Made by a program: the position numbers and the translations under genes | The notes under the pieces: model-generated | Seen by the model: only the letters and a program-made list of their open reading frames with translations | Databases searched by the model: none | What the model was told of the DNA's origin: nothing | Virus record (IMG/VR): IMGVR_UViG_2917413769_000009 | Span: 1-44,211 of that record | Length of the DNA stretch: 44,211 bases | Direction: 5' to 3' (one strand) | Source of the DNA: a virus | Lineage: Duplodnaviria; Heunggongvirae; Uroviricota; Caudoviricetes | Part shown: positions 3,533 through 38,967 of the stretch, in pieces | Layout: each line of letters starts with the position of its first letter | Position numbering within the stretch: position 1 is the stretch's first letter

Positions 3533-3814
3533 TCACATCCAGCCACGAAGTTGATGCTCAACAGCAACCGCGTATTCATCGAATAATGACGATATTTGCG
3601 AATCATTAATGATGCGCACGTTTACAAAATATCCGTCTTCCTTAACACATACCGGTTCGCCATCTTCAGTCAGTTCTCCGGTTTCTTTGTACACGTTACC
3701 TATCACGTCAATAAGAATATCATCCTGCATCGTCTCGTCGTCATAATAGCCAGTGCTATCCATAAAGGCCGAAAAGTCGGCCCTGTCTGCAAATTTGAGT
3801 GTTAAATCTTTCAT
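3533..3814 (-). CDS. hypothetical acidic protein (93 aa), translationally coupled to stf; possible fibre assembly factor
   Basis: ATG at 3812-3814 overlaps the stf stop (ATGA overlap). Acidic composition, no recognised motif. Confidence 0.5.
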   Translation of the reverse strand: MKDLTLKFADRADFSAFMDSTGYYDDETMQDDILIDVIGNVYKETGELTEDGEPVCVKEDGYFVNVRIINDSQISSLFDEYAVAVEHQLRGWM

Positions 3815-6213
3815 TTAATACTCTCCCCCATTTGTGCCTCAGTTAATTCTTTATGCCAAATGCGTAAATTTTTCACATGACCGAACAGGTGTCTGTTGCC
3901 ACTGGATGATTGTCCACCGATATTAATATTACCGGCAGTATAACGTTGCAATGTATGCAGAGACGGGGAGCTGCTACCTAAAATTCCATCAACAACAACC
4001 TGCAACTGTTTATCTTCTGTAAACTTAAAGCCAGTAACAAATTTCCTTTTCTCTCTATTCCCATATGCTTTATATTCTGTTTTTGTTCCTTTGCCATTGG
4101 TGATAATTAGCCTTTTACCACGAGTGGTAAAACCAAAATACATATAACTTTCATCAGAAACTTCAGTCGTCGCCCCTGTAATTGAGATATTAAGCAAACG
4201 CGCAGAGCCTTCTAAATTAGGCATTTCAGAATCCCAATTAACATTAACTTCCATGAGAACACTAATTGGTGGAGTTGCCCAGTTGAAAGGTATAGGTATG
4301 ATTACCTGGTCACTTGCTCTCGTGGCACCGACCTCTGTTGTGATGATAAAAGATGAGGCGTTTAGTCCCTTTTCGAATTGAGGGGTTGTTAACATTAATT
4401 TATCGCCAGACTTGATTGATCGTTGATGTGCTCCAAACTCAAAACGCCCATACATATTTTTGGCTTCTGGTGATTTGTAGGTAAACTCAACACGAATCCA
4501 TCCATTAGACTCTCTGAATATGTTATAAGTTGCCGCCTCACCTCCAGAATAACTCAACATATCGCCAGTCTCGCAATCAATATATGCGCCAGCGGTCAGT
4601 GTGTTACTTGAGCCATCGTCGTTAACATATGATATTCTTGGACGCAACGTGATAATACCATCCCCACTTACTTTTTTAACTCTGCAGGATAAAGTAACTG
4701 ATTCATTTGCCGAAACTGAAATAACCCTGGTATATCCAGTAGAAATTAATGTCGCCCTTTCAGTTGTGGATGTTTCTTTAACGCCAAACAAACCATAACT
4801 GAAACCATACTCATCAACTCCCGTGGTAATAGTTAAGTTAGCAGTGTCATAGTTCCACGATGCTGGTGTATTCGTATAAGAAAAAGTATTCGTTCTCTGA
4901 CCTTCAATGAGCAGACCATCTTTTTCAAAACGTGGTTCATTTATCACTGATTCAGCAAAACACCCAGACTTATCTATATACGTTGCAGTTGACGCCCTGG
5001 TAAATGAAACAACCTTTTCAGACGGCAATGTAATAACATCGTCACCAACTGTGATGCTCTTATACCCAGGAGCAAACCCGGTAATCATATCCAGTGAATC
5101 GTTAAACGGTATCCACACATCAGGCAGCGGCTGTAAGACATATTTATACGGCTCTGCTGCCTGGCTTGCATACTCTCTGGCTGCGTCTTCACTTTCTTTA
5201 GCTGCCGTCTGGCTTGCAGCGGATGCTTTCGCCGAGTTCGCCGCTGCAGTCTCGCTTGTCTTTGCATTGGTTTCACTGGTTTTTGCTGCTTTTTGGCTGT
5301 TGGCTGATGCAGTGGCAGAAGCAGCCGCCGCGCTTGCAGAACCAGCTGCGGCACTCTCGCTTTGGGCTGCTGCATCCTGACTGTTTTTCGCCGCAGTTTC
5401 GCTGGCTTTGGCATTTGTTTCGCTGGTCTTCGCTGCCGCCTGGCTGGACTTTGCGTTTGTTTCGCTCGTTTTCGCGGCTTTCTGGCTGTTAGCCGCAGCT
5501 GTTGCTGATCCAGCTGCTGAAGTCGCCGAACCAGCTGCAGCATTCTCGCTTTCGGCTGCTGCATCCTGACTGCTTTTCGCCGCAGTTTCACTGGCTTTGG
5601 CATTTGTTTCGCTGGTCTTCGCTGCCGTCTGGCTGGACTTTGCGTTGGTTTCGCTCGTCTTTGCGGCTGTCTCGCTGTTTTTCGCGTTGGTTTCTGATTT
5701 TTTGGCTGCTGTCGCGGAGTTTGCCGATGCAGTCTGTGAGGTCGCTGCCGCCTGTGCGCTGTTAGCTGCATTCGTTTCTGAGGTTTTCGCCGCATTTTTC
5801 GATGATGCCGCTGCAGTTTCGGATTTCTTTGCCGCCGCTGCGCTCTGAGAGGCGGCTTCGGCGTTGCGTGCCGCTTCTTCCACCATTTCCTCAAAACGAC
5901 GCAATGCCTCAGGCATGACATCATCTTCCGTCATGGCACCGAGAAAATCATTCAGCGTACCTGGTCTGGAACCTTCATAGACGGTAATGATCCCGGCATG
6001 TGAAGGCGGAAAACCTTCAACCAGCAGGGTGACGCTGTACTGGCCATACTCAACATCCATGCTGTAACGCCCGGCTTCATCCGGATTTTCAGAGGCTACC
6101 GTGTTCACCAGTACCGTGGTGCTGTTACGCTTTGCCTTCAGTTGAATAGTGCAGTTCTGTATTGGTTTTCCCGCACCATCTTTCAGCACACCTGAGATTT
6201 TTACTGCTGCCAT
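3811..6213 (-). CDS. stf: side tail fibre protein (lambda Stf-like N-terminus, Ala/Ser/Thr-rich repeat shaft, LamG/ConA-like C-terminal domain)
   Basis: N-terminus MAAVKISGVLKDGAGKPIQNCTIQLKA...YSMDVEYGQYSV matches lambda Stf as recalled; start set at the ATG at 6213 (the ORF track starts at a GTG two codons upstream). C-terminus ...HLFGHVKNLRIWHKELTEAQM resembles the end of LamG-type jelly-roll domains. Confidence 0.85.
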   Translation of the reverse strand: MAAVKISGVLKDGAGKPIQNCTIQLKAKRNSTTVLVNTVASENPDEAGRYSMDVEYGQYSVTLLVEGFPPSHAGIITVYEGSRPGTLNDFLGAMTEDDVMPEALRRFEEMVEEAARNAEAASQSAAAAKKSETAAASSKNAAKTSETNAANSAQAAATSQTASANSATAAKKSETNAKNSETAAKTSETNAKSSQTAAKTSETNAKASETAAKSSQDAAAESENAAAGSATSAAGSATAAANSQKAAKTSETNAKSSQAAAKTSETNAKASETAAKNSQDAAAQSESAAAGSASAAAASATASANSQKAAKTSETNAKTSETAAANSAKASAASQTAAKESEDAAREYASQAAEPYKYVLQPLPDVWIPFNDSLDMITGFAPGYKSITVGDDVITLPSEKVVSFTRASTATYIDKSGCFAESVINEPRFEKDGLLIEGQRTNTFSYTNTPASWNYDTANLTITTGVDEYGFSYGLFGVKETSTTERATLISTGYTRVISVSANESVTLSCRVKKVSGDGIITLRPRISYVNDDGSSNTLTAGAYIDCETGDMLSYSGGEAATYNIFRESNGWIRVEFTYKSPEAKNMYGRFEFGAHQRSIKSGDKLMLTTPQFEKGLNASSFIITTEVGATRASDQVIIPIPFNWATPPISVLMEVNVNWDSEMPNLEGSARLLNISITGATTEVSDESYMYFGFTTRGKRLIITNGKGTKTEYKAYGNREKRKFVTGFKFTEDKQLQVVVDGILGSSSPSLHTLQRYTAGNINIGGQSSSGNRHLFGHVKNLRIWHKELTEAQMGESIK
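5200..5880. repeat. tandem imperfect coding repeats within the stf shaft
   Basis: Two near-identical blocks at about 5365-5480 and 5560-5680, giving the duplicated protein blocks AAKTSETNAKSSQ...AAKTSETNAKASETAAK(S/N)SQDAAA(E/Q)SE(N/S)AAAGSA. They generate long spurious ORFs on both strands. Confidence 0.7.
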
Positions 6214-6224
6214 ATCCACTCCAC

Positions 6225-12812: not shown

Positions 12813-15800
12813 TCAGGCACTGCATAATCCTCCGTCCCGACGTGATGACTGCATAATTGACACAACCCTGCTGTCGATCAGATCCACCAGCCCCCTGGCT
12901 GACTGCGTATCTATCTCGCCATTGCTCCCTTTATTCTGAATACTGATGTGATACACGGGAGAATAAACAAATCCCCCGCCACCATTCACATTGCCAATGG
13001 CTCTGACTCCAAGAGAGCCGTCCGCTGCCCGGGTCAGTGGCATGATAGCTTCAGGCCCGGCCTCGCCCATCAGCCCGGCACCTTTCGCAAAAGCAAAATA
13101 CGTCGGGGTATCCACAATGGTGTTACTGTAAGCACTCAAATTTGCCGATGTATAAACACCACCTTTTGCGTTTGCCACTGCACCGGAAAGCCAGTCGCCG
13201 ACTGTACCAAGCCATCCTCCGGCACCGGACATGCTTTTGGAAAGTGACTTCAGCCCGTTAACGATGGCAGCGTTCATCAGAATTTTTGAAACTTCCTGGA
13301 GAATTGAACTCCCCCAGTTTCGCCAGTCCACAACATTTCCGGCCAGTGCATCGGAAATATTTGATACCAGCCCGTCCATAGTGGAAACGACAGCATCTGC
13401 CGCCTGCGAAGCATAATCGGTGGCACTGTCTGCCCAGTTCGTCAGTCCCTCCTGGAGGCCGGCATTCCAGTCACTGCGTAAAGCATCAGCCTTTGCATAA
13501 TAATCCTGCTGATCGCTGAGACGCTCTTCCAGATATTTTTCATTCAGCGATTTTTCCTGTTTCCACAGGGCTTCTTCAATTTCTCCGGCCTGATACTGTC
13601 TCAGTAGCTCGTTATTTTTCTGCTCAAACGCCTGCCGGATACTCCACATTTCCTGGAGTCGTTCACGCATCCGTGAGCCTTCACCATATCCCAGCAACTG
13701 CGCGTCGTCAGATGCCCGGGCACTGGCATTACTGTCCGCCAGACTGCTTTCATACGCGGCAAGCTGCTCACGAATCTTTTTCTGGTCGATGAGTGCCGCA
13801 TTCTGTAAAAGCGTTTTTTTTCTGCGCTTCTGACAGGGTTGATAATTCGCCCTGACTGACCTGATATTTCATCTTAGCCAGTTCAGTATTCTGCCCTGCC
13901 AGTGCTATCTGTTCTTTTTGCTGTTTAATCAGCCGTTTATAAATATCTTCTGTTTTTTCCGCTTCGGTCTTTTTATGCGTTTTGGGTTTATTTGCCTGGT
14001 TATTTCGCCAGGCATCCAGTGAGTTATTGATATAATTCTGTCTGGCTGTCTGATACGCCTCTCCCACAAAGCCGAGATCATCCGCAGCATAGCCCAGTCG
14101 GGCACGCTCACGCGCTTCCCCCTTAAGGCGGGACAGAGCCAGTTCGCGCTTGCTGTTATTCAGTGCGGTCTGCTGTTTATCATCCAGGGTTGCCTGTGGT
14201 AGCCGTAACGGTACATTCACCAGCCCCTGTCGCTGCTGAAGTAATTCATTACCAAGCCCAAGAAGGCGATTAAACTCGGTATGCTGCCCATTCATGATCA
14301 ACAGGGACTGATACGCTTTGTTTTGTTCCGCCGCCTGTTGACGGATCAACGCCACCCGTCGCTCCTCCAGCCCGGCAAGCACATCCTGAATAGATTGCGC
14401 TTTGCCCTGCATTTGAGTGAGACGGGATTGTTCAACTGCCAGTTGATTTGTTGCTTCGGCAAGCCCTTTAAGGATGATTTCAGCACCCGAACCACTCTGC
14501 GAACTTTCATCAAGCCAACGTTGATAATCAGCAATTTGATTTTTCAGTCCGCGAATTTTTCCTTCCTGTTCGCTAATCAGGCGATTTTGTTCCTCCAGTG
14601 CCTGCCGCGTCTTTTCCTCATTATCTGACGCTTCAGGAAGCGACATTGCCGACGTTTTCTGGCGAATTTCGTCGATTGTTGCGGCATACTGACGTGCAGA
14701 TTCTCTGGCCTGCTCCTGATTCTGATACATCGTGTACCAGGCCGCAGCCCCCAGCATGACAAGCCCCGGCACACCACCAACCAGCCCCAGTGCCCCTCTT
14801 AACAGACGACTCCCCACTGACGTGACAGTATTCAGCGTTGTCTGTGCTGCTGTTCTGGCCGCAATATTACGGGTAAGTGACGCCTGAGCAGCTGTCAGCT
14901 TCGCTTCTGCGGCTGCCTGCCTTTCAGTACCACGGGTAGCCGCAACCGCCTGTTGCGCACGATAAACCGCCGCACGCGCCCTGGCTGTTGCTATCTGTGT
15001 CCCCCGAAGTTGCGCTTCCGCAAGAGCCACTTCGTTTCTGGCTGCAGTAATTAATCCGGCAGTTGCAGATCCAGCAGAAGACGCCATATTGCCAAAATAT
15101 CGGGCTACCCCGACGGCAACCAGAGCACCGGCAGCGGTTGCCACAGTGTCAATATTGCCTGCAATACCATTCAGCACACCGGAGAGCGTCTTCGTCACTC
15201 CGCTTGCCTCGTTCGCACCACCAACCCAGGCCATAAAGGCGTTTTCAACTTTGGTTGCAGAGGATGAAACCGTATCAGGCATTGCCGCATATTCATCACG
15301 TAATGCCCCAAGCTGACTAACCAGTGCAGGAACAACCTTATCGGCGGTCAACTTTCCGTTATCCGCCATGGCCTTCAGATCCTTACGGGCAACCCCCATT
15401 CCCGCAGCCAGCGCACGAATAACACGATCGCCGTTCTCATTCACCGAGTTAAACTCTTCACCGCGTAGCACTCCCTGCGCCAGTGCCTGACTGAACTGCG
15501 TGATCACCGAACTGGCTTCTGCTGTACTGGCACCGGATAATTTCAGGCCCGTGGAGATCGCCTCGGTGACTTTCAGTACCTCCTCAGAACTGTAACCATA
15601 CTCCCGCATGGAAGCTGCAGAACGTGCAAAAAGGCTGGCGTTATCAGAAAACGCCGTCCCCGTTCTCTGGCTGATCGCCATTAATTCACGCTGTGATGCC
15701 TGAAAATCATCACTGGACTGTGAGGCCTGCTTCAGACGGGCATTTACTGAATTCCACTCATCGGCGAGAGAAATAAGATGACCGGTAGCAAAAGCCCCGG

Positions 15801-16032
15801 CAAATGCCCCCGCCATATTCAGTGCCGAAGATTTAGCTGTATTTATTTGATCCGTCACTTCTGCCAGTGCACGCCGCATTTCACGGGATGCAGCAGCGGA
15901 CTGCCGGCCTCCGTTCTGCATGGTACGGTAGTAATCCTGCCCCATACGCGAAGCCCGGGAGATCTCTGACTGGAATGACCGGGAATTTGCCGAGATTTTA
16001 ATAATCAGTTCACGTAATGTCGCCACACTCAT
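12813..16032 (-). CDS. H: tail tape measure protein; reading frame interrupted at the A8 run (plus-strand T8 at 13814-13821)
   Basis: A 754-aa ORF (13768-16032) and a 294-aa ORF (12813-13697) are two frames of one gene. The C-terminal part (...AYSNTIVDTPTYFAFAKGAGLMGEAGPEAIMPL...) is lambda H C-terminus-like; removing one A from the run fuses the frames (...SEAQKKTLLQNAALID...). Confidence 0.85.
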
Positions 16033-16072: not shown

Positions 16073-16384
16073 TCACTGAGACACTATTAAAAGCGCGTTT
16101 TCCAGTCCGGCAAATGGATCTGATACGCCTTCTGTCTGCTCCTTCTCCCACTGAAGAAGCGCATCATTCAGTGGCACTTTGACCCCCTGCGCACCGTAAA
16201 CAGCTGAAACAATCTGGGCAGCCCGGATATCAGCCCGTTCGTCCCCCAGCGGGCTGAACCTGTCAAATTCTGCCCACATCATGATTTCTGATGCGGACAT
16301 TTCCCGGCGTAACTCTGACAATGTGCGCCCCATCCTGAGCGCCAGCATCATCAGAAAACGCATCCCCGGAATCGCTACTTTTTT
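16073..16384 (-). CDS. T: tail assembly chaperone T extension, expressed only as a G-T fusion by -1 frameshift
   Basis: The -1 frame is open from just 3' of the slippery site to 16073 (...VAIPGMRFLMMLALRMGRTLSELRREM...), the classic lambda G/G-T arrangement. Confidence 0.75.
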   Translation of the reverse strand, partial: KKVAIPGMRFLMMLALRMGRTLSELRREMSASEIMMWAEFDRFSPLGDERADIRAAQIVSAVYGAQGVKVPLNDALLQWEKEQTEGVSDPFAGLENALLIVSQ

Positions 16385-16761
16385 TTAACCTCGCCGGCAT
16401 CACTGATCAGTTCCAGAGACTGCCGAAGAAGCCGCGCATGCACCGGGCCATACACGGCAATCACCTGTTCACGATCATCCTCTGAAAATACAGGTTGCAG
16501 TCCGGTATCACACAGAACATCGATGAACAGTTCAACATCCGCTTCCAGATTTCGGCGGGCGCGCTCCGCAACGGATAGCGGTGTCTCATCATCTTTTGCT
16601 TTAACGATCTCCTGCCAGCGCAACCAGGCTTCTGCAGAAGGTTCCCGTAATACAACCGTTGCCCCTTCCCATTCAGGCACATCAACAGTTTTATGGCGAA
16701 ACCCCGACATCGTTGCCAGTGCCAGATTACGGATATTTTTAGTCATCACATCTATCCTCAT
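16375..16761 (-). CDS. G: tail assembly chaperone G
   Basis: Position between the major tail and tape measure genes; ends ...AGEVKKK-stop within the slippery A-run. An alternative ATG start at 16746 is possible. Confidence 0.85.
   Translation of the reverse strand: MRIDVMTKNIRNLALATMSGFRHKTVDVPEWEGATVVLREPSAEAWLRWQEIVKAKDDETPLSVAERARRNLEADVELFIDVLCDTGLQPVFSEDDREQVIAVYGPVHARLLRQSLELISDAGEVKKK
16378..16384 (-). promoter_or_regulatory. programmed -1 ribosomal frameshift slippery heptamer A AAA AAG
   Basis: On the minus-strand mRNA positions 16384 to 16378 read A-AAA-AAG, with the G stop 2 codons later and the T frame open. Confidence 0.7.
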
Positions 16762-22497: not shown

Positions 22498-24230
22498 TTA
22501 AAGCGAGCGGATCCCGTAGGACTCAATGTGGTCAGACAGCGTGTCTTCTTTCTCGTACAGCATGGCTCTGCCAACCGCCATAATCAGCGCAACTGCACCA
22601 TCGATTTTGTTTTCCGCCTGCTCTTTGACGGGCTTCACCACATCATCGTTACCCGGAATGGTTTTTCCGACCACGTTGCCGATACACCAGGTCATGATGG
22701 GATTGCCATCATGATGAAAGCGCCCCGATTCAATTGCCGCTTCCAGCTCTTTCATCGGGTCGGACATGTTGGTGTAGTTCTGAATGATGGTGACGGGGTT
22801 CAGGTCTTCATCAGCAAGGTCATGTGACAGCCCGGTCGCCCGAAGGGGTCGATGGGTGACTCGCTGACCGGGCTGATTTTGTTCGCCGCTTTGGCCTCTT
22901 CGAGGATGTAGCGATAATCCACCTCTGCACCATCGGTAACGGTCAGAACGCCCATTTCCACCCATTTCTGAAAGCGTTCGGCTGTCCGGCGATCTTCATT
23001 TTTCTCGACGCTATACACCGTGTCATACGGTACCCAGAAACGCGGGGCCACACTGTAGTAATGCGTTTTACCGTCAATCTCGCGGGTATAAAGTCGCGCC
23101 ATGCTGTTCATATCCAGCTTACGCGCCAGGTCAAAGGCCAGAATGCACGGCTGCCCCTCGAATTGCTCAAGAGTCAGTGATTTATCCTCGCAGCTCTGCC
23201 AGCTCACCAGGTTGAAATACGCCGAACGCGCCGACACCCAGATATTGAGGTGTTTTGTTTTAAAGACGTTTGCCAGACGGGCGTTATTTTTCGCACGCTG
23301 TTGCTGACTTAACAAAAACTCACGGTAAACCGACACCCCGATATTCGGGTTGGCTTTTTCCAGCACCTGTGGGTCGGTCCAGTCGTCACCTTCGTCAACG
23401 GTATAGATGATCCCGAACAGTTCATCGTTGGGTACCGAACCGTTGAGCATCTCGATAACTTCCCGCCGTTTGTCGTAGCACGGCCCCTCAATGTTGTACC
23501 CGGCGGTAGTGATAGCCCACATCAGTGGCTGACGTCGCGCCCCCATCCCGGTAATCATCGTGGTGTAAAGCGCATCTGTGGCGTGCTCGTGATATTCATC
23601 CACCACCGCACAGTGGGGTGATGAACCATCACCGGGGTTACCGATCAGCGGTTCAAACCGCGCCCCATCCTCCGGACGGTTCATGTTTGAGGCGTTAACC
23701 TCAATCCCGAACGCTTCCGTCAGCATTGGTGTGCGTTTACACATCAGTCGCGCCGGGCGAAAAACTTCCCACGCCTGTTTCTCTGTCGTGGCACCGGAAT
23801 ACACTTCCGCGCCAAACTCGTTATCACAGGCAAAACAATACAGGGCAACACCGGCAGAGATTGCCGATTTGCCGTTTTTACGGGGAATTTCGGTATACAC
23901 CTCCCGGAAGCGGCGCAACCGGGTGCCTTTATTGACCCAGCCAAACGCACAGCAGATCACAAATAGCTGCCACGGCTCCAGCGTGATGGGCATCCGTTTA
24001 AATGCCCACTCACCCTTGGTGTGCGGCAACAGCTGAATAAATTTGGCGGCCCGTTCAGCCAGGTCCTTGTCGAAGCGGTAACGAAACGACTTACTTTTTT
24101 CCGCCATCAGGTCATCAAGATGGCGCTGGCAGGCCTGAATCACAAACTGGCAGGCAACAATCTTTCCGCGCACGACATCCCGGGCATACTGATTTGCAGC
24201 ATTTACGTTGGGGTAAGATTTCCGGCTCAT
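22498..24230 (-). CDS. terminase large subunit; reading frame interrupted near the G4 run at 22845-22848
   Basis: N-terminal ATPase part is the 476-aa ORF 22800-24230, the C-terminal nuclease part continues in another frame to 22498 (...[22 protein letters not shown]...). Adding one G/C at the run gives a continuous ...[14 protein letters not shown]... Confidence 0.85.
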
Positions 24231-36443: not shown

Positions 36444-37309
36444 ATCGTAATGATTATGTTTTCGCTCTCAGTGAGCGCGAGCAAATAAGTAATCTATTAA
36501 AAAATATGCCAACAAGTCATTCTATTAGCCGAAAAAGCTTAGAAGACCGTCTGGAGAAAGTTGAGCGATTAATTTCACAAGCTGACGTTCGAGAACATGA
36601 ACCTACGCATGCTGTGTTAACTTTTAGAGGCCCAACAGTAGTTGGCACGCATGGCATTTCAGCAGTATTTGGAACAAAAGCTATATCTTGTTTTAATGAT
36701 GCAATAGCTTACTTGGCAACCTCTTTCAATGGCCCACTTCCTGCATCAGGCAAGATACCAAACATAGAAAATAATCATCTCATGATTACCGCGTCAGCCC
36801 GTGGTTCTTTCGGATTCGTACTTGAAGAGTTTAGACCTGATGCTCCTCTTGAATTCGATGAAGAAACCCCAGTAGCAAAAGCTATTAATAAGGCCAGAAA
36901 AATATTTCAGGCAAGCTTGGATAATGATGATGAAGAATTGTCTGATGCTATAGAAAACTTAGACTCTCGGGCCTTAGATAAAATCAGAGCGTTCATTCAT
37001 TATCTGCATGAAAATAAAACAGTTTTTACACTTAAAAGCCAAGGTTTTAGCATCGTTTTTAGAGAGCCAAAACAGCTTGAAGCTGTATATCAACATCTCA
37101 GCAATGATAATATTCAGCAGGAAAAAATTATTGAGAACGTTATATTTTTGGGAACTCTTCCTAACAAGCGCCAATGTGAATTTATAGTTTTAGGTAACAC
37201 TGATATCAGAACCGCTAGCATTGACAAAGCTGTAGATGACCCAGATATTATAAACAAGCACTTAGGAAGCGTTGCAACAGCCACGTTCCTGAAAAAAAAC
37301 TGTTGGTAA
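36440..37309 (+). CDS. hypothetical protein B of the cI-linked two-gene cassette (rexB position)
   Basis: 289-aa ORF, ATG overlaps the stop of gene A (ATGA), SD GAGGGGG; AT-rich; no TM segments; the only motif noted is R-x6-H (RAFIHYLH) in a helical stretch. Confidence 0.7.
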   Translation: MNRNDYVFALSEREQISNLLKNMPTSHSISRKSLEDRLEKVERLISQADVREHEPTHAVLTFRGPTVVGTHGISAVFGTKAISCFNDAIAYLATSFNGPLPASGKIPNIENNHLMITASARGSFGFVLEEFRPDAPLEFDEETPVAKAINKARKIFQASLDNDDEELSDAIENLDSRALDKIRAFIHYLHENKTVFTLKSQGFSIVFREPKQLEAVYQHLSNDNIQQEKIIENVIFLGTLPNKRQCEFIVLGNTDIRTASIDKAVDDPDIINKHLGSVATATFLKKNCW

Positions 37310-38589: not shown

Positions 38590-38967
38590 ATGAATAGATG
38601 TCAAACATCAAAAAAATACATCATTGATTACGACTGGAAAGCATCAATAGAAATTGAAATCGACCATGACGTAATGACAGAGGAAAAACTTCACCAGATT
38701 AATAATTTCTGGTCAGACTCTGAATACCGACTCAATAAACACGGCGCTGTATTAAATGCTGTATTAATCATGCTGGCGCAACATGCTCTGCTTATAGCAA
38801 TTTCGAAAGACTTAAATGCATATGGTGTTGTTTGTGAGTTCGACTGGGATGATGGAAATGGTCAGGAAGGATGGCCTCCAATGGATGGTAGTGAAGGAAT
38901 AAGAATTACCGATATCGATACATCAGGAATATTTGATTCAGATGATATGACTATCAAAGCCGCCTGA
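38590..38967 (+). CDS. Ea10-like early protein; probable true start at the ATG at 38598, disrupted by an extra A in the A7 run
   Basis: The long ORF starts at an ATG with SD spacing of only 1 nt. The ATG at 38598 has good SD spacing but reads MSNIKKIHH-stop; with A6 instead of A7 (38610-38616) it would read MSNIKKYIIDYDWK... into the long ORF. Confidence 0.5.
   Translation: MNRCQTSKKYIIDYDWKASIEIEIDHDVMTEEKLHQINNFWSDSEYRLNKHGAVLNAVLIMLAQHALLIAISKDLNAYGVVCEFDWDDGNGQEGWPPMDGSEGIRITDIDTSGIFDSDDMTIKAA

What the first reader, a model, noticed from the sequence alone, without database searches (positions are those of the whole stretch)
13800..13830. Tape measure gene split by a one-base shift in an A8 homopolymer
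The 754-aa ORF and the downstream 294-aa ORF (lambda H C-terminus-like) are two frames of one gene. The break maps to the plus-strand T8 run at 13814-13821; a 7-nt run restores a continuous protein of roughly 1070 aa. Either a homopolymer sequencing/assembly error or a genuine inactivating mutation that would make the prophage tail-defective.
Basis: seen in the sequence. Interest (0 to 1): 0.45.

Follow-up and report, generated by a model that had tools for sequence, protein, structure and literature searches.

The report
Sequencing-error frameshift in tape measure gene
The phage tail "tape measure" gene looks broken in two here, but the extra base in a run of eight A's is almost certainly an Ion Torrent sequencing error, because a second assembly of the same bacterial strain has seven A's and an intact gene.

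Summary
T8 sits at 13814-13821 (A8 on the coding minus strand). The 754-aa ORF and the downstream +1 frame are two pieces of one lambda/HK97-type tape measure gene, and removing one A gives a 1070-aa protein.

The break is very likely not biological. The window is contig PDIL01000009.1 of Escherichia sp. E1130 (cryptic clade II), an Ion Torrent-only draft. A second NCBI assembly of the same strain (VATL01) matches 39.6 kb of the window with 0 substitutions and only 6 one-base homopolymer differences. Five are +1 in A/T runs, including this one. One is -1 in a G4 run, which splits the terminase large subunit gene. The second assembly carries A7 and an intact 1070-aa tape measure protein.

All 38 other relatives fetched have A7, and none of 861 E. 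coli complete genomes matches the A8 stretch exactly. A sister Ion Torrent assembly from the same project shows the same signature in housekeeping genes, including essential rplT.

Verdict: a homopolymer over-call, not a tail-defective prophage and not a programmed frameshift. Low interest, except as a warning about this assembly.

The parts
13814..13821 (-). A8 homopolymer (T8 on the plus strand). One base too many compared with every relative. This is the site of the apparent +1 frame break in the tape measure gene.
   Evidence: It is A7 in the same-strain assembly VATL01000010.1 and in 38 other relatives. IMG/VR and metagenome scans found no A6, A8, A9 or A10 alleles.
13768..16032 (-). 5' piece of the tape measure gene as recorded: 754 aa from the ATG at 16032, or 752 aa from the GTG at 16026 used in relatives. 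It ends in 13 out-of-frame residues (NAFTECGTHRPEKDS after QKK) and a stop.
   Evidence: Pfam TMP_3 and Phage_HK97_TLTM. tblastn against an intact relative covers residues 1-737.
12813..13868 (-). 3' piece of the tape measure gene in the +1 frame. The frame is open from 13868. The listed 294-aa ORF starts at a TTG at 13697, which is not a real start. Stop at 12813-12815.
   Evidence: Pfam Tape_meas_lam_C. tblastn against an intact relative covers residues 713-1070.
12813..16026 (-). The whole tape measure gene. With A7 it encodes a 1070-aa protein identical to NCBI TLI72233.1 / WP_138211462.1 of Escherichia sp. E1130.
   Evidence: NCBI calls no product here in the PDIL record.
22839..22841 (-). 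G3 run (G4 in the same-strain assembly and in relatives). This second one-base homopolymer discrepancy splits the terminase large subunit gene (22498..24230) into 476-aa and 155-aa ORFs.
37292..37299 (.). A8 on the plus strand, against a 7-base run in the same-strain assembly. It shortens a 309-aa ORF to 289 aa.
38610..38616 (.). A7 on the plus strand, against a 6-base run in the same-strain assembly. It alters the N-terminus of the DUF2528 gene (125 aa against 122 aa).
42090..42096 (.). T7 on the plus strand, against a 6-base run in the same-strain assembly. It lies at the start of the Invasin_D4-domain gene.
42144..42151 (.). A8 on the plus strand, against a 7-base run in the same-strain assembly. 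It truncates the N-terminus of the Invasin_D4-domain gene (214 aa against 233 aa).

Best explanation
The extra A is a homopolymer-length over-call by the Ion Torrent platform that was carried into the deposited assembly PDIL01000009.1 of Escherichia sp. E1130. The real prophage has A7 and one intact 1070-aa lambda/HK97-type tape measure gene. That gene lies between the G/GT tail chaperone genes and the gene for minor tail protein M. Shown here: the platform, the same-strain A7 assembly, the indel-only pattern of differences, and the same error signature in housekeeping genes of a sister assembly. Inferred: that the A8 reads are wrong rather than the culture having changed. The raw reads could not be inspected.
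For: (1) Source. The window is identical to PDIL01000009.1 over the 20,427 overlapping bases. PDIL00000000 is strain E1130, sequenced only on Ion Torrent (single-end 35-400 nt, 50x, MIRA/SPAdes).

(2) Same strain, second assembly. The repaired 1070-aa protein is exactly NCBI TLI72233.1 / WP_138211462.1, 'phage tail tape measure protein [Escherichia sp. E1130]', on a 16,644-nt contig. That contig is VATL01000010.1 of GCA_005781065.1.

(3) Indel-only differences. VATL contigs match the window over 43330-26915, 26604-9961 and 9602-3014, 39,649 nt in total. There are 0 substitutions and 6 one-base indels, all in homopolymers: five +1 in A/T runs (6 to 7 twice, 7 to 8 three times) and one G4 to G3. 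Of the 13 A/T runs of 7 or more bases in that span, 5 are discrepant.

(4) Polarity. A7 is found in all 38 other relatives fetched. IMG/VR gave 20 A7 matches and metagenomes gave 4, with no A6, A8, A9 or A10. None of 861 E. coli complete genomes carrying this 96-nt stretch matches it at 100%; the best matches differ only by the one-base gap. All relatives have an intact gene of 1070 or 1079 aa.

(5) Same-project control. The Ion Torrent assembly PDIH and its zero-substitution twin VATN differ at 13 gap positions in 21.9 kb of the thrS-pheT chromosomal region. Eleven of the 12 events are +1 or +2 in A/T runs. One is a frameshift at codon 5 of rplT. Five other clade II genomes have no gaps among themselves while differing by 96-334 substitutions.

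(6) The prophage is otherwise pristine. The other 33 genes compared are full length.

(7) Homopolymer indels are the dominant Ion Torrent error, A and T flows are error-prone, and they cause frameshifts in assemblies (PMC3623719).
Against: Raw reads were not examined. An independent (Logan) assembly of run SRR6148301, presumably the same Ion Torrent reads, also gives A8 and the terL G3. The over-call is therefore the read consensus, not an assembler quirk. On that evidence alone a true A8 in the culture sequenced cannot be excluded. The platform behind the VATL assembly could not be established. Bragg et al. (PMC3623719) found that early PGM chemistry mostly under-called long homopolymers, whereas here the long A/T runs are over-called. 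The same-project control shows that over-calling is this project's error profile.
Confidence: 0.93

Rival explanations
1. A genuine +1 slippage mutation (A7 to A8) inactivated the tape measure gene in the E1130 culture that was sequenced on Ion Torrent. That lineage's prophage would then be tail-defective. It would also be packaging-defective through the terL G4 to G3 change.
For: Homopolymers are real mutational hot spots (established knowledge). Two assemblers of the presumed same read set agree on A8 and G3. Prophage structural genes are not under selection in a lysogen.
Against: The second assembly of the same strain has A7 and G4. Six homopolymer indels with 0 substitutions in 39.6 kb is not a natural mutation spectrum, because substitutions outnumber indels even in mismatch-repair mutants (established knowledge). 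A sister assembly from the same project shows the same pattern in an essential ribosomal protein gene. There are no other marks of prophage decay.
Confidence: 0.05
2. The A8 is real and functional. Transcriptional slippage or +1 ribosomal frameshifting on the A run would produce both a 752-aa truncated product and a full-length tape measure protein. A mixed A7/A8 population acting as an on/off switch is a related possibility.
For: Runs of 8 or more A's are known sites of RNA polymerase slippage (established knowledge). The same gene cluster uses a real programmed -1 frameshift on A AAA AAG at the end of gene G.
Against: A programmed site should be conserved, yet the run is A7 and in frame in every relative and in the same strain's other assembly. 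By contrast, the G/GT A8 run is A8 in 34 of 34 loci. No tape measure gene of this family is known to need recoding (own knowledge).
Confidence: 0.02

Closest known systems
Tail length tape measure proteins of lambda (gpH) and HK97-like siphophages, as in E. coli prophages and phages phi467, Evi and HK544
   Same: Same position between the G/T chaperone genes and gene M. Same Pfam domains (TMP_3, Phage_HK97_TLTM, Tape_meas_lam_C). 95-98% nucleotide identity to phi467 and Evi, and 96% protein identity to an E. coli prophage protein.
   Different: Only the one extra A in the deposited record. The corrected protein is an ordinary member.
Homopolymer indel errors of flow-based sequencing (Ion Torrent PGM, 454)
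   Same: A single-base length change inside a homopolymer, clustered with other such changes and with no substitutions. It is present in an Ion Torrent-only assembly and absent from another assembly of the same strain.
   Different: The direction is over-calling of long A/T runs. Early PGM data mostly under-called long runs.
Programmed -1 frameshift of tail assembly chaperones G/GT (lambda G GGA AAG; here A AAA AAG)
   Same: An A-rich run in the same gene cluster that joins two frames.
   Different: The G/GT site is conserved (A8 in 34 of 34 loci), shifts by -1, and sits at the end of gene G. The tape measure run is A7 and in frame everywhere else, and A8 would need a +1 shift.
Rescue of poly(A)-tract frameshifts by transcriptional slippage (described for insect endosymbionts; own knowledge, not checked here)
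   Same: A frameshifting A run of about 8 or more bases inside an otherwise intact gene.
   Different: There is no evidence that the A8 exists in the DNA of the strain.

Membership tests
Lambda/HK97-type tail tape measure protein | Matches to the tape-measure profile families above their curated cut-offs | tested here: met
   Repaired protein: PF06120 at 277 bits, PF20155 at 195 bits, PF09718 at 52 bits.
Lambda/HK97-type tail tape measure protein | Gene lies between the tail chaperone genes G/T and minor tail gene M, as one long ORF | tested here: met
   Gene order is Phage_TAC_1, Phage_tail_T, TMP, Phage_min_tail. It is a single ORF of 1070 aa once the run is A7, as in the same-strain assembly.
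Flow-sequencing homopolymer artefact | The record was produced on a flow-based platform without polishing by another technology | tested here: met
   Ion Torrent only, assembled with MIRA/SPAdes (PMC6639607).
Flow-sequencing homopolymer artefact | The discrepancy is a length change within a homopolymer and is accompanied by other such changes without substitutions | tested here: met
   Six homopolymer indels and 0 substitutions in 39,649 nt against the same-strain assembly.
Flow-sequencing homopolymer artefact | An independent assembly of the same strain lacks the change | tested here: met
   VATL01000010.1 of Escherichia sp. E1130 has A7 and an intact TMP. Its sequencing platform is unknown.
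Flow-sequencing homopolymer artefact | Raw reads show a spread of run lengths or strand bias at the site | not testable with these tools
The Logan assembly of SRR6148301 reproduces A8.
Genuine pseudogene in a decaying prophage | The lesion is reproducible in independent data from the same strain | tested here: not met
   The same-strain assembly has A7.
Genuine pseudogene in a decaying prophage | Other marks of decay, such as nonsense substitutions, deletions or IS insertions | tested here: not met
   33 of 35 compared genes are full length. The only other lesion is the terL homopolymer indel.
Programmed frameshift or slippage site | The out-of-frame arrangement and slippery run are conserved among relatives | tested here: not met
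   A7 and in frame in 38 fetched relatives, 20 IMG/VR loci and 4 metagenome loci. None of 861 E. coli genomes matches the A8 stretch.
Programmed frameshift or slippage site | Both the short and the long product are made | not testable with these tools
   This needs protein or RNA data.

The most novel reading that the evidence does not exclude
The A8 allele really exists in part of the E1130 population. Slippage at this run would then switch tail production, and so phage release, off and on, with transcriptional slippage giving leaky full-length tape measure protein.
Probability: 0.03. Interest if true: 0.35.

Novelty: not a real feature. Interest (0 to 1): 0.04.

Why it matters
It matters only as quality control. 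This prophage should not be scored as tail-defective or cryptic. Pseudogene counts, prophage-intactness calls and functional-divergence analyses built on the PDI* Ion Torrent assemblies of Escherichia cryptic clade II will be inflated by homopolymer frameshifts. The rate seen here is roughly one per 2-7 kb: 6 in 39.6 kb for this window and 12 events in 21.9 kb in a sister assembly. The VAT* assemblies of the same strains are the better references.

Tried and rejected
- The exact look-up of the 754-aa ORF from the ATG at 16032 found nothing. The 752-aa form from the GTG at 16026 exists only in one Logan contig.
- A scan of the species-representative genome collection for the run with 6-10 A's found nothing, so the source genome is not held there.
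- Literature searches for VATL00000000, GCA_005781065, SRR8835199 and SRR6148301 gave no usable paper.
- The follow-up clade II paper and the EnteroBase paper say nothing about re-sequencing. The platform behind the VAT* assemblies therefore stays unknown.
- I considered that the VAT* assemblies, rather than the PDI* assemblies, carry the errors as under-calls. I rejected this because outgroups from other laboratories agree with VAT* and all relatives of the tape measure gene have A7.
- I considered a programmed frameshift and rejected it for lack of conservation.
- I did not run the large protein homology searches or structure prediction. The protein family was already unambiguous.

Full report
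**Observation**

The plus strand carries T8 at 13814-13821, which is A8 on the coding minus strand. The 754-aa ORF (16032..13768, minus strand) ends 44 nt downstream of the run. The +1 frame is open from 13868 to its stop at 12815-12813. Both frames are open only within 13771-13868, and the run lies in that zone.

The 1070-aa tape measure protein of an intact E. coli prophage aligns to the window in two pieces. Residues 1-737 align at 96% identity in one frame, and residues 713-1070 at 94% in the other. Removing one A gives a continuous 1070-aa protein from the GTG at 16026 that relatives use as the start. That protein matches Pfam TMP_3, Phage_HK97_TLTM and Tape_meas_lam_C. The lambda-H C-terminal domain is in the downstream piece.

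**Setting**

The window is a lambdoid, HK97-like prophage on the minus strand. The late genes run in this order: terS, terL, portal, protease, capsid, connector proteins, major tail, G, T, tape measure, M, L, K, I, J, Lom and tail fibres. The early region follows. The prophage abuts the chromosome about 51 nt upstream of thrS, at window position ~1980.

**Relatives**

- Phages phi467 and Evi, and many E. coli prophages, carry the gene at 95-98% identity as one ORF of 1070 or 1079 aa.
- Every relative fetched has A7: 38 independent loci.
- Pattern scans allowing 6 to 10 A's found 20 IMG/VR loci and 4 metagenome loci, all A7. The A8 pattern found none.
- Of 861 E. coli complete genomes that hold the 96-nt stretch around the run, none matches at 100%. 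The best matches differ only by the one-base gap.

**Where the window comes from**

The J protein of the window occurs on one contig, PDIL01000009.1 of GCA_004745435.1. That contig is identical to the window over the 20,427 overlapping bases. NCBI calls no product between genes T and M there.

PDIL00000000 is Escherichia sp. E1130, a cryptic clade II isolate from Hong Kong intertidal sediment. It was sequenced only on Ion Torrent (single-end 35-400 nt reads, 50x) and assembled with MIRA and SPAdes (PMC6639607).

**The decisive comparison**

A second NCBI assembly, GCA_005781065.1 (VATL01), holds the same prophage on three contigs. The repaired 1070-aa protein is exactly NCBI TLI72233.1 / WP_138211462.1, named 'phage tail tape measure protein [Escherichia sp. 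E1130]', on a 16,644-nt contig. That contig is VATL01000010.1. VATL01 is therefore a second assembly of the same strain.

It matches the window over 43330-26915, 26604-9961 and 9602-3014, 39,649 nt in all. There are no substitutions and six one-base indels, all in homopolymers:

| Window position | Window | VATL | Effect |
|---|---|---|---|
| 13814-13821 | 8 | 7 | splits the tape measure gene |
| 37292-37299 | 8 | 7 | shortens a 309-aa ORF to 289 aa |
| 42144-42151 | 8 | 7 | truncates the Invasin_D4-domain gene (214 aa against 233 aa) |
| 38610-38616 | 7 | 6 | alters the DUF2528 gene N-terminus (125 aa against 122 aa) |
| 42090-42096 | 7 | 6 | lies at the start of the Invasin_D4-domain gene |
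| 22839-22841 | G3 | G4 | splits terL into 476-aa and 155-aa ORFs |

The terL split is supported. Five of the 13 A/T runs of 7 or more bases in the compared span disagree. In every case the VATL version gives the longer or intact ORF.

**Same-project control**

Around thrS, the Ion Torrent assembly PDIH (strain E2586) and its twin VATN differ by 0 substitutions and 13 gap positions in 21.9 kb. Eleven of the 12 events are +1 or +2 in A/T runs. Five other clade II genomes, some from other laboratories, show no gaps among themselves while differing by 96-334 substitutions.

One PDIH indel is an A4 to A5 change at codon 5 of rplT, the gene for ribosomal protein L20, which is essential in E. coli (established knowledge). 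It cannot be real. This shows the project's error profile directly: over-called A/T homopolymers at roughly one per 2-7 kb.

**Explanation**

The extra A is an Ion Torrent homopolymer over-call carried into the deposited consensus. The real gene has A7 and is intact. Homopolymer indels are the dominant error of this platform, A and T flows are the most error-prone, and frameshifts in assemblies are a stated consequence (PMC3623719).

Caveats:

- I could not see reads.
- A Logan assembly of run SRR6148301, presumably the same Ion Torrent reads, also gives A8 and G3, plus one more G3 to G2 at window position 23518. The error is therefore in the read consensus, not in one assembler.
- The platform behind VATL01 is not documented in anything I could find.
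- Early PGM data mostly under-called long runs, whereas this project over-calls them.

**Rivals**

A genuine A7 to A8 mutation in the culture sequenced is not excluded by the reads I could reach. However, it would require six homopolymer indels and no substitution between two datasets of one strain. It would also have to be coincidence that a sister assembly shows the same pattern in essential genes. I give it about 5%.

A programmed +1 frameshift or slippage site is contradicted by the complete lack of conservation. By contrast, the real programmed -1 site of this cluster, A AAA AAG at the end of gene G (16384-16378), has its A8 run in 34 of 34 loci. I give this about 2%.

**Comparison with known things, and novelty**

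The corrected gene is an ordinary lambda/HK97-type tape measure gene. The 'split' is a known kind of artefact. It is not a real feature, and its only value is as a caution about the PDI* assemblies.

Noticed in passing
window 22839-22841 (terL, 22498..24230, minus strand): The terminase large subunit gene is also split, into 476-aa and 155-aa ORFs. The cause is a G3 run that is G4 in the same-strain assembly VATL01, in Logan SRR8835199 and in E. coli relatives, where the protein is 577 aa. NCBI calls no product here either.
   Followed up: yes
window 37292-37299, 38610-38616, 42090-42096, 42144-42151: Four more +1 A/T homopolymer discrepancies against the same-strain assembly. They silently change three early-region ORFs: 289 aa against 309 aa, 125 aa against 122 aa, and the Invasin_D4-domain protein at 214 aa against 233 aa. 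None is flagged as a pseudogene.
   Followed up: yes
window 16378-16386 (minus strand), end of gene G (16375..16761): GTT AAA AAA AAG TAG. The slippery heptamer A AAA AAG sits directly before the stop of the tail assembly chaperone gene, and gene T is in the -1 frame. This is the expected programmed G/GT frameshift. The A8 run is the same in both E1130 assemblies and in 34 of 34 fetched loci.
   Followed up: partly
L052 (PDIH01000055.1) against L048 (VATN01000009.1); also L047 (PDID): Sister Ion Torrent assemblies of the same project carry homopolymer frameshifts in chromosomal housekeeping genes. In PDIH, rplT is frameshifted at codon 5, and no product is called for pfkB, the fructosamine-kinase-family gene, the SDF-family transporter gene, the ABC-transporter ATPase gene downstream of the glutathione peroxidase gene, or an EAL-domain gene. 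The whole PDI* series should be treated as indel-error-rich.
   Followed up: partly
L041 (Logan SRR6148301_476), corresponds to window 23518: The Logan assembly of the presumed E1130 Ion Torrent run has a further G3 to G2 deletion in terL that the PDIL assembly lacks. Homopolymer calls from these reads are therefore unstable between assemblers.
   Followed up: partly
window ~1980: The chromosome-prophage junction lies about 51 nt upstream of the thrS start codon. Other clade II strains have a yniD-like gene and ydiY/pfkB upstream of thrS instead. The other prophage end lies beyond the right edge of the window.
   Followed up: partly
window ~5242-5679 (tail fibre gene 3811..6219, minus strand): An internal 249-nt segment matches itself at an offset of 189 nt with 39 mismatches. 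This points to tandemly repeated modules inside the tail fibre gene.
   Followed up: no
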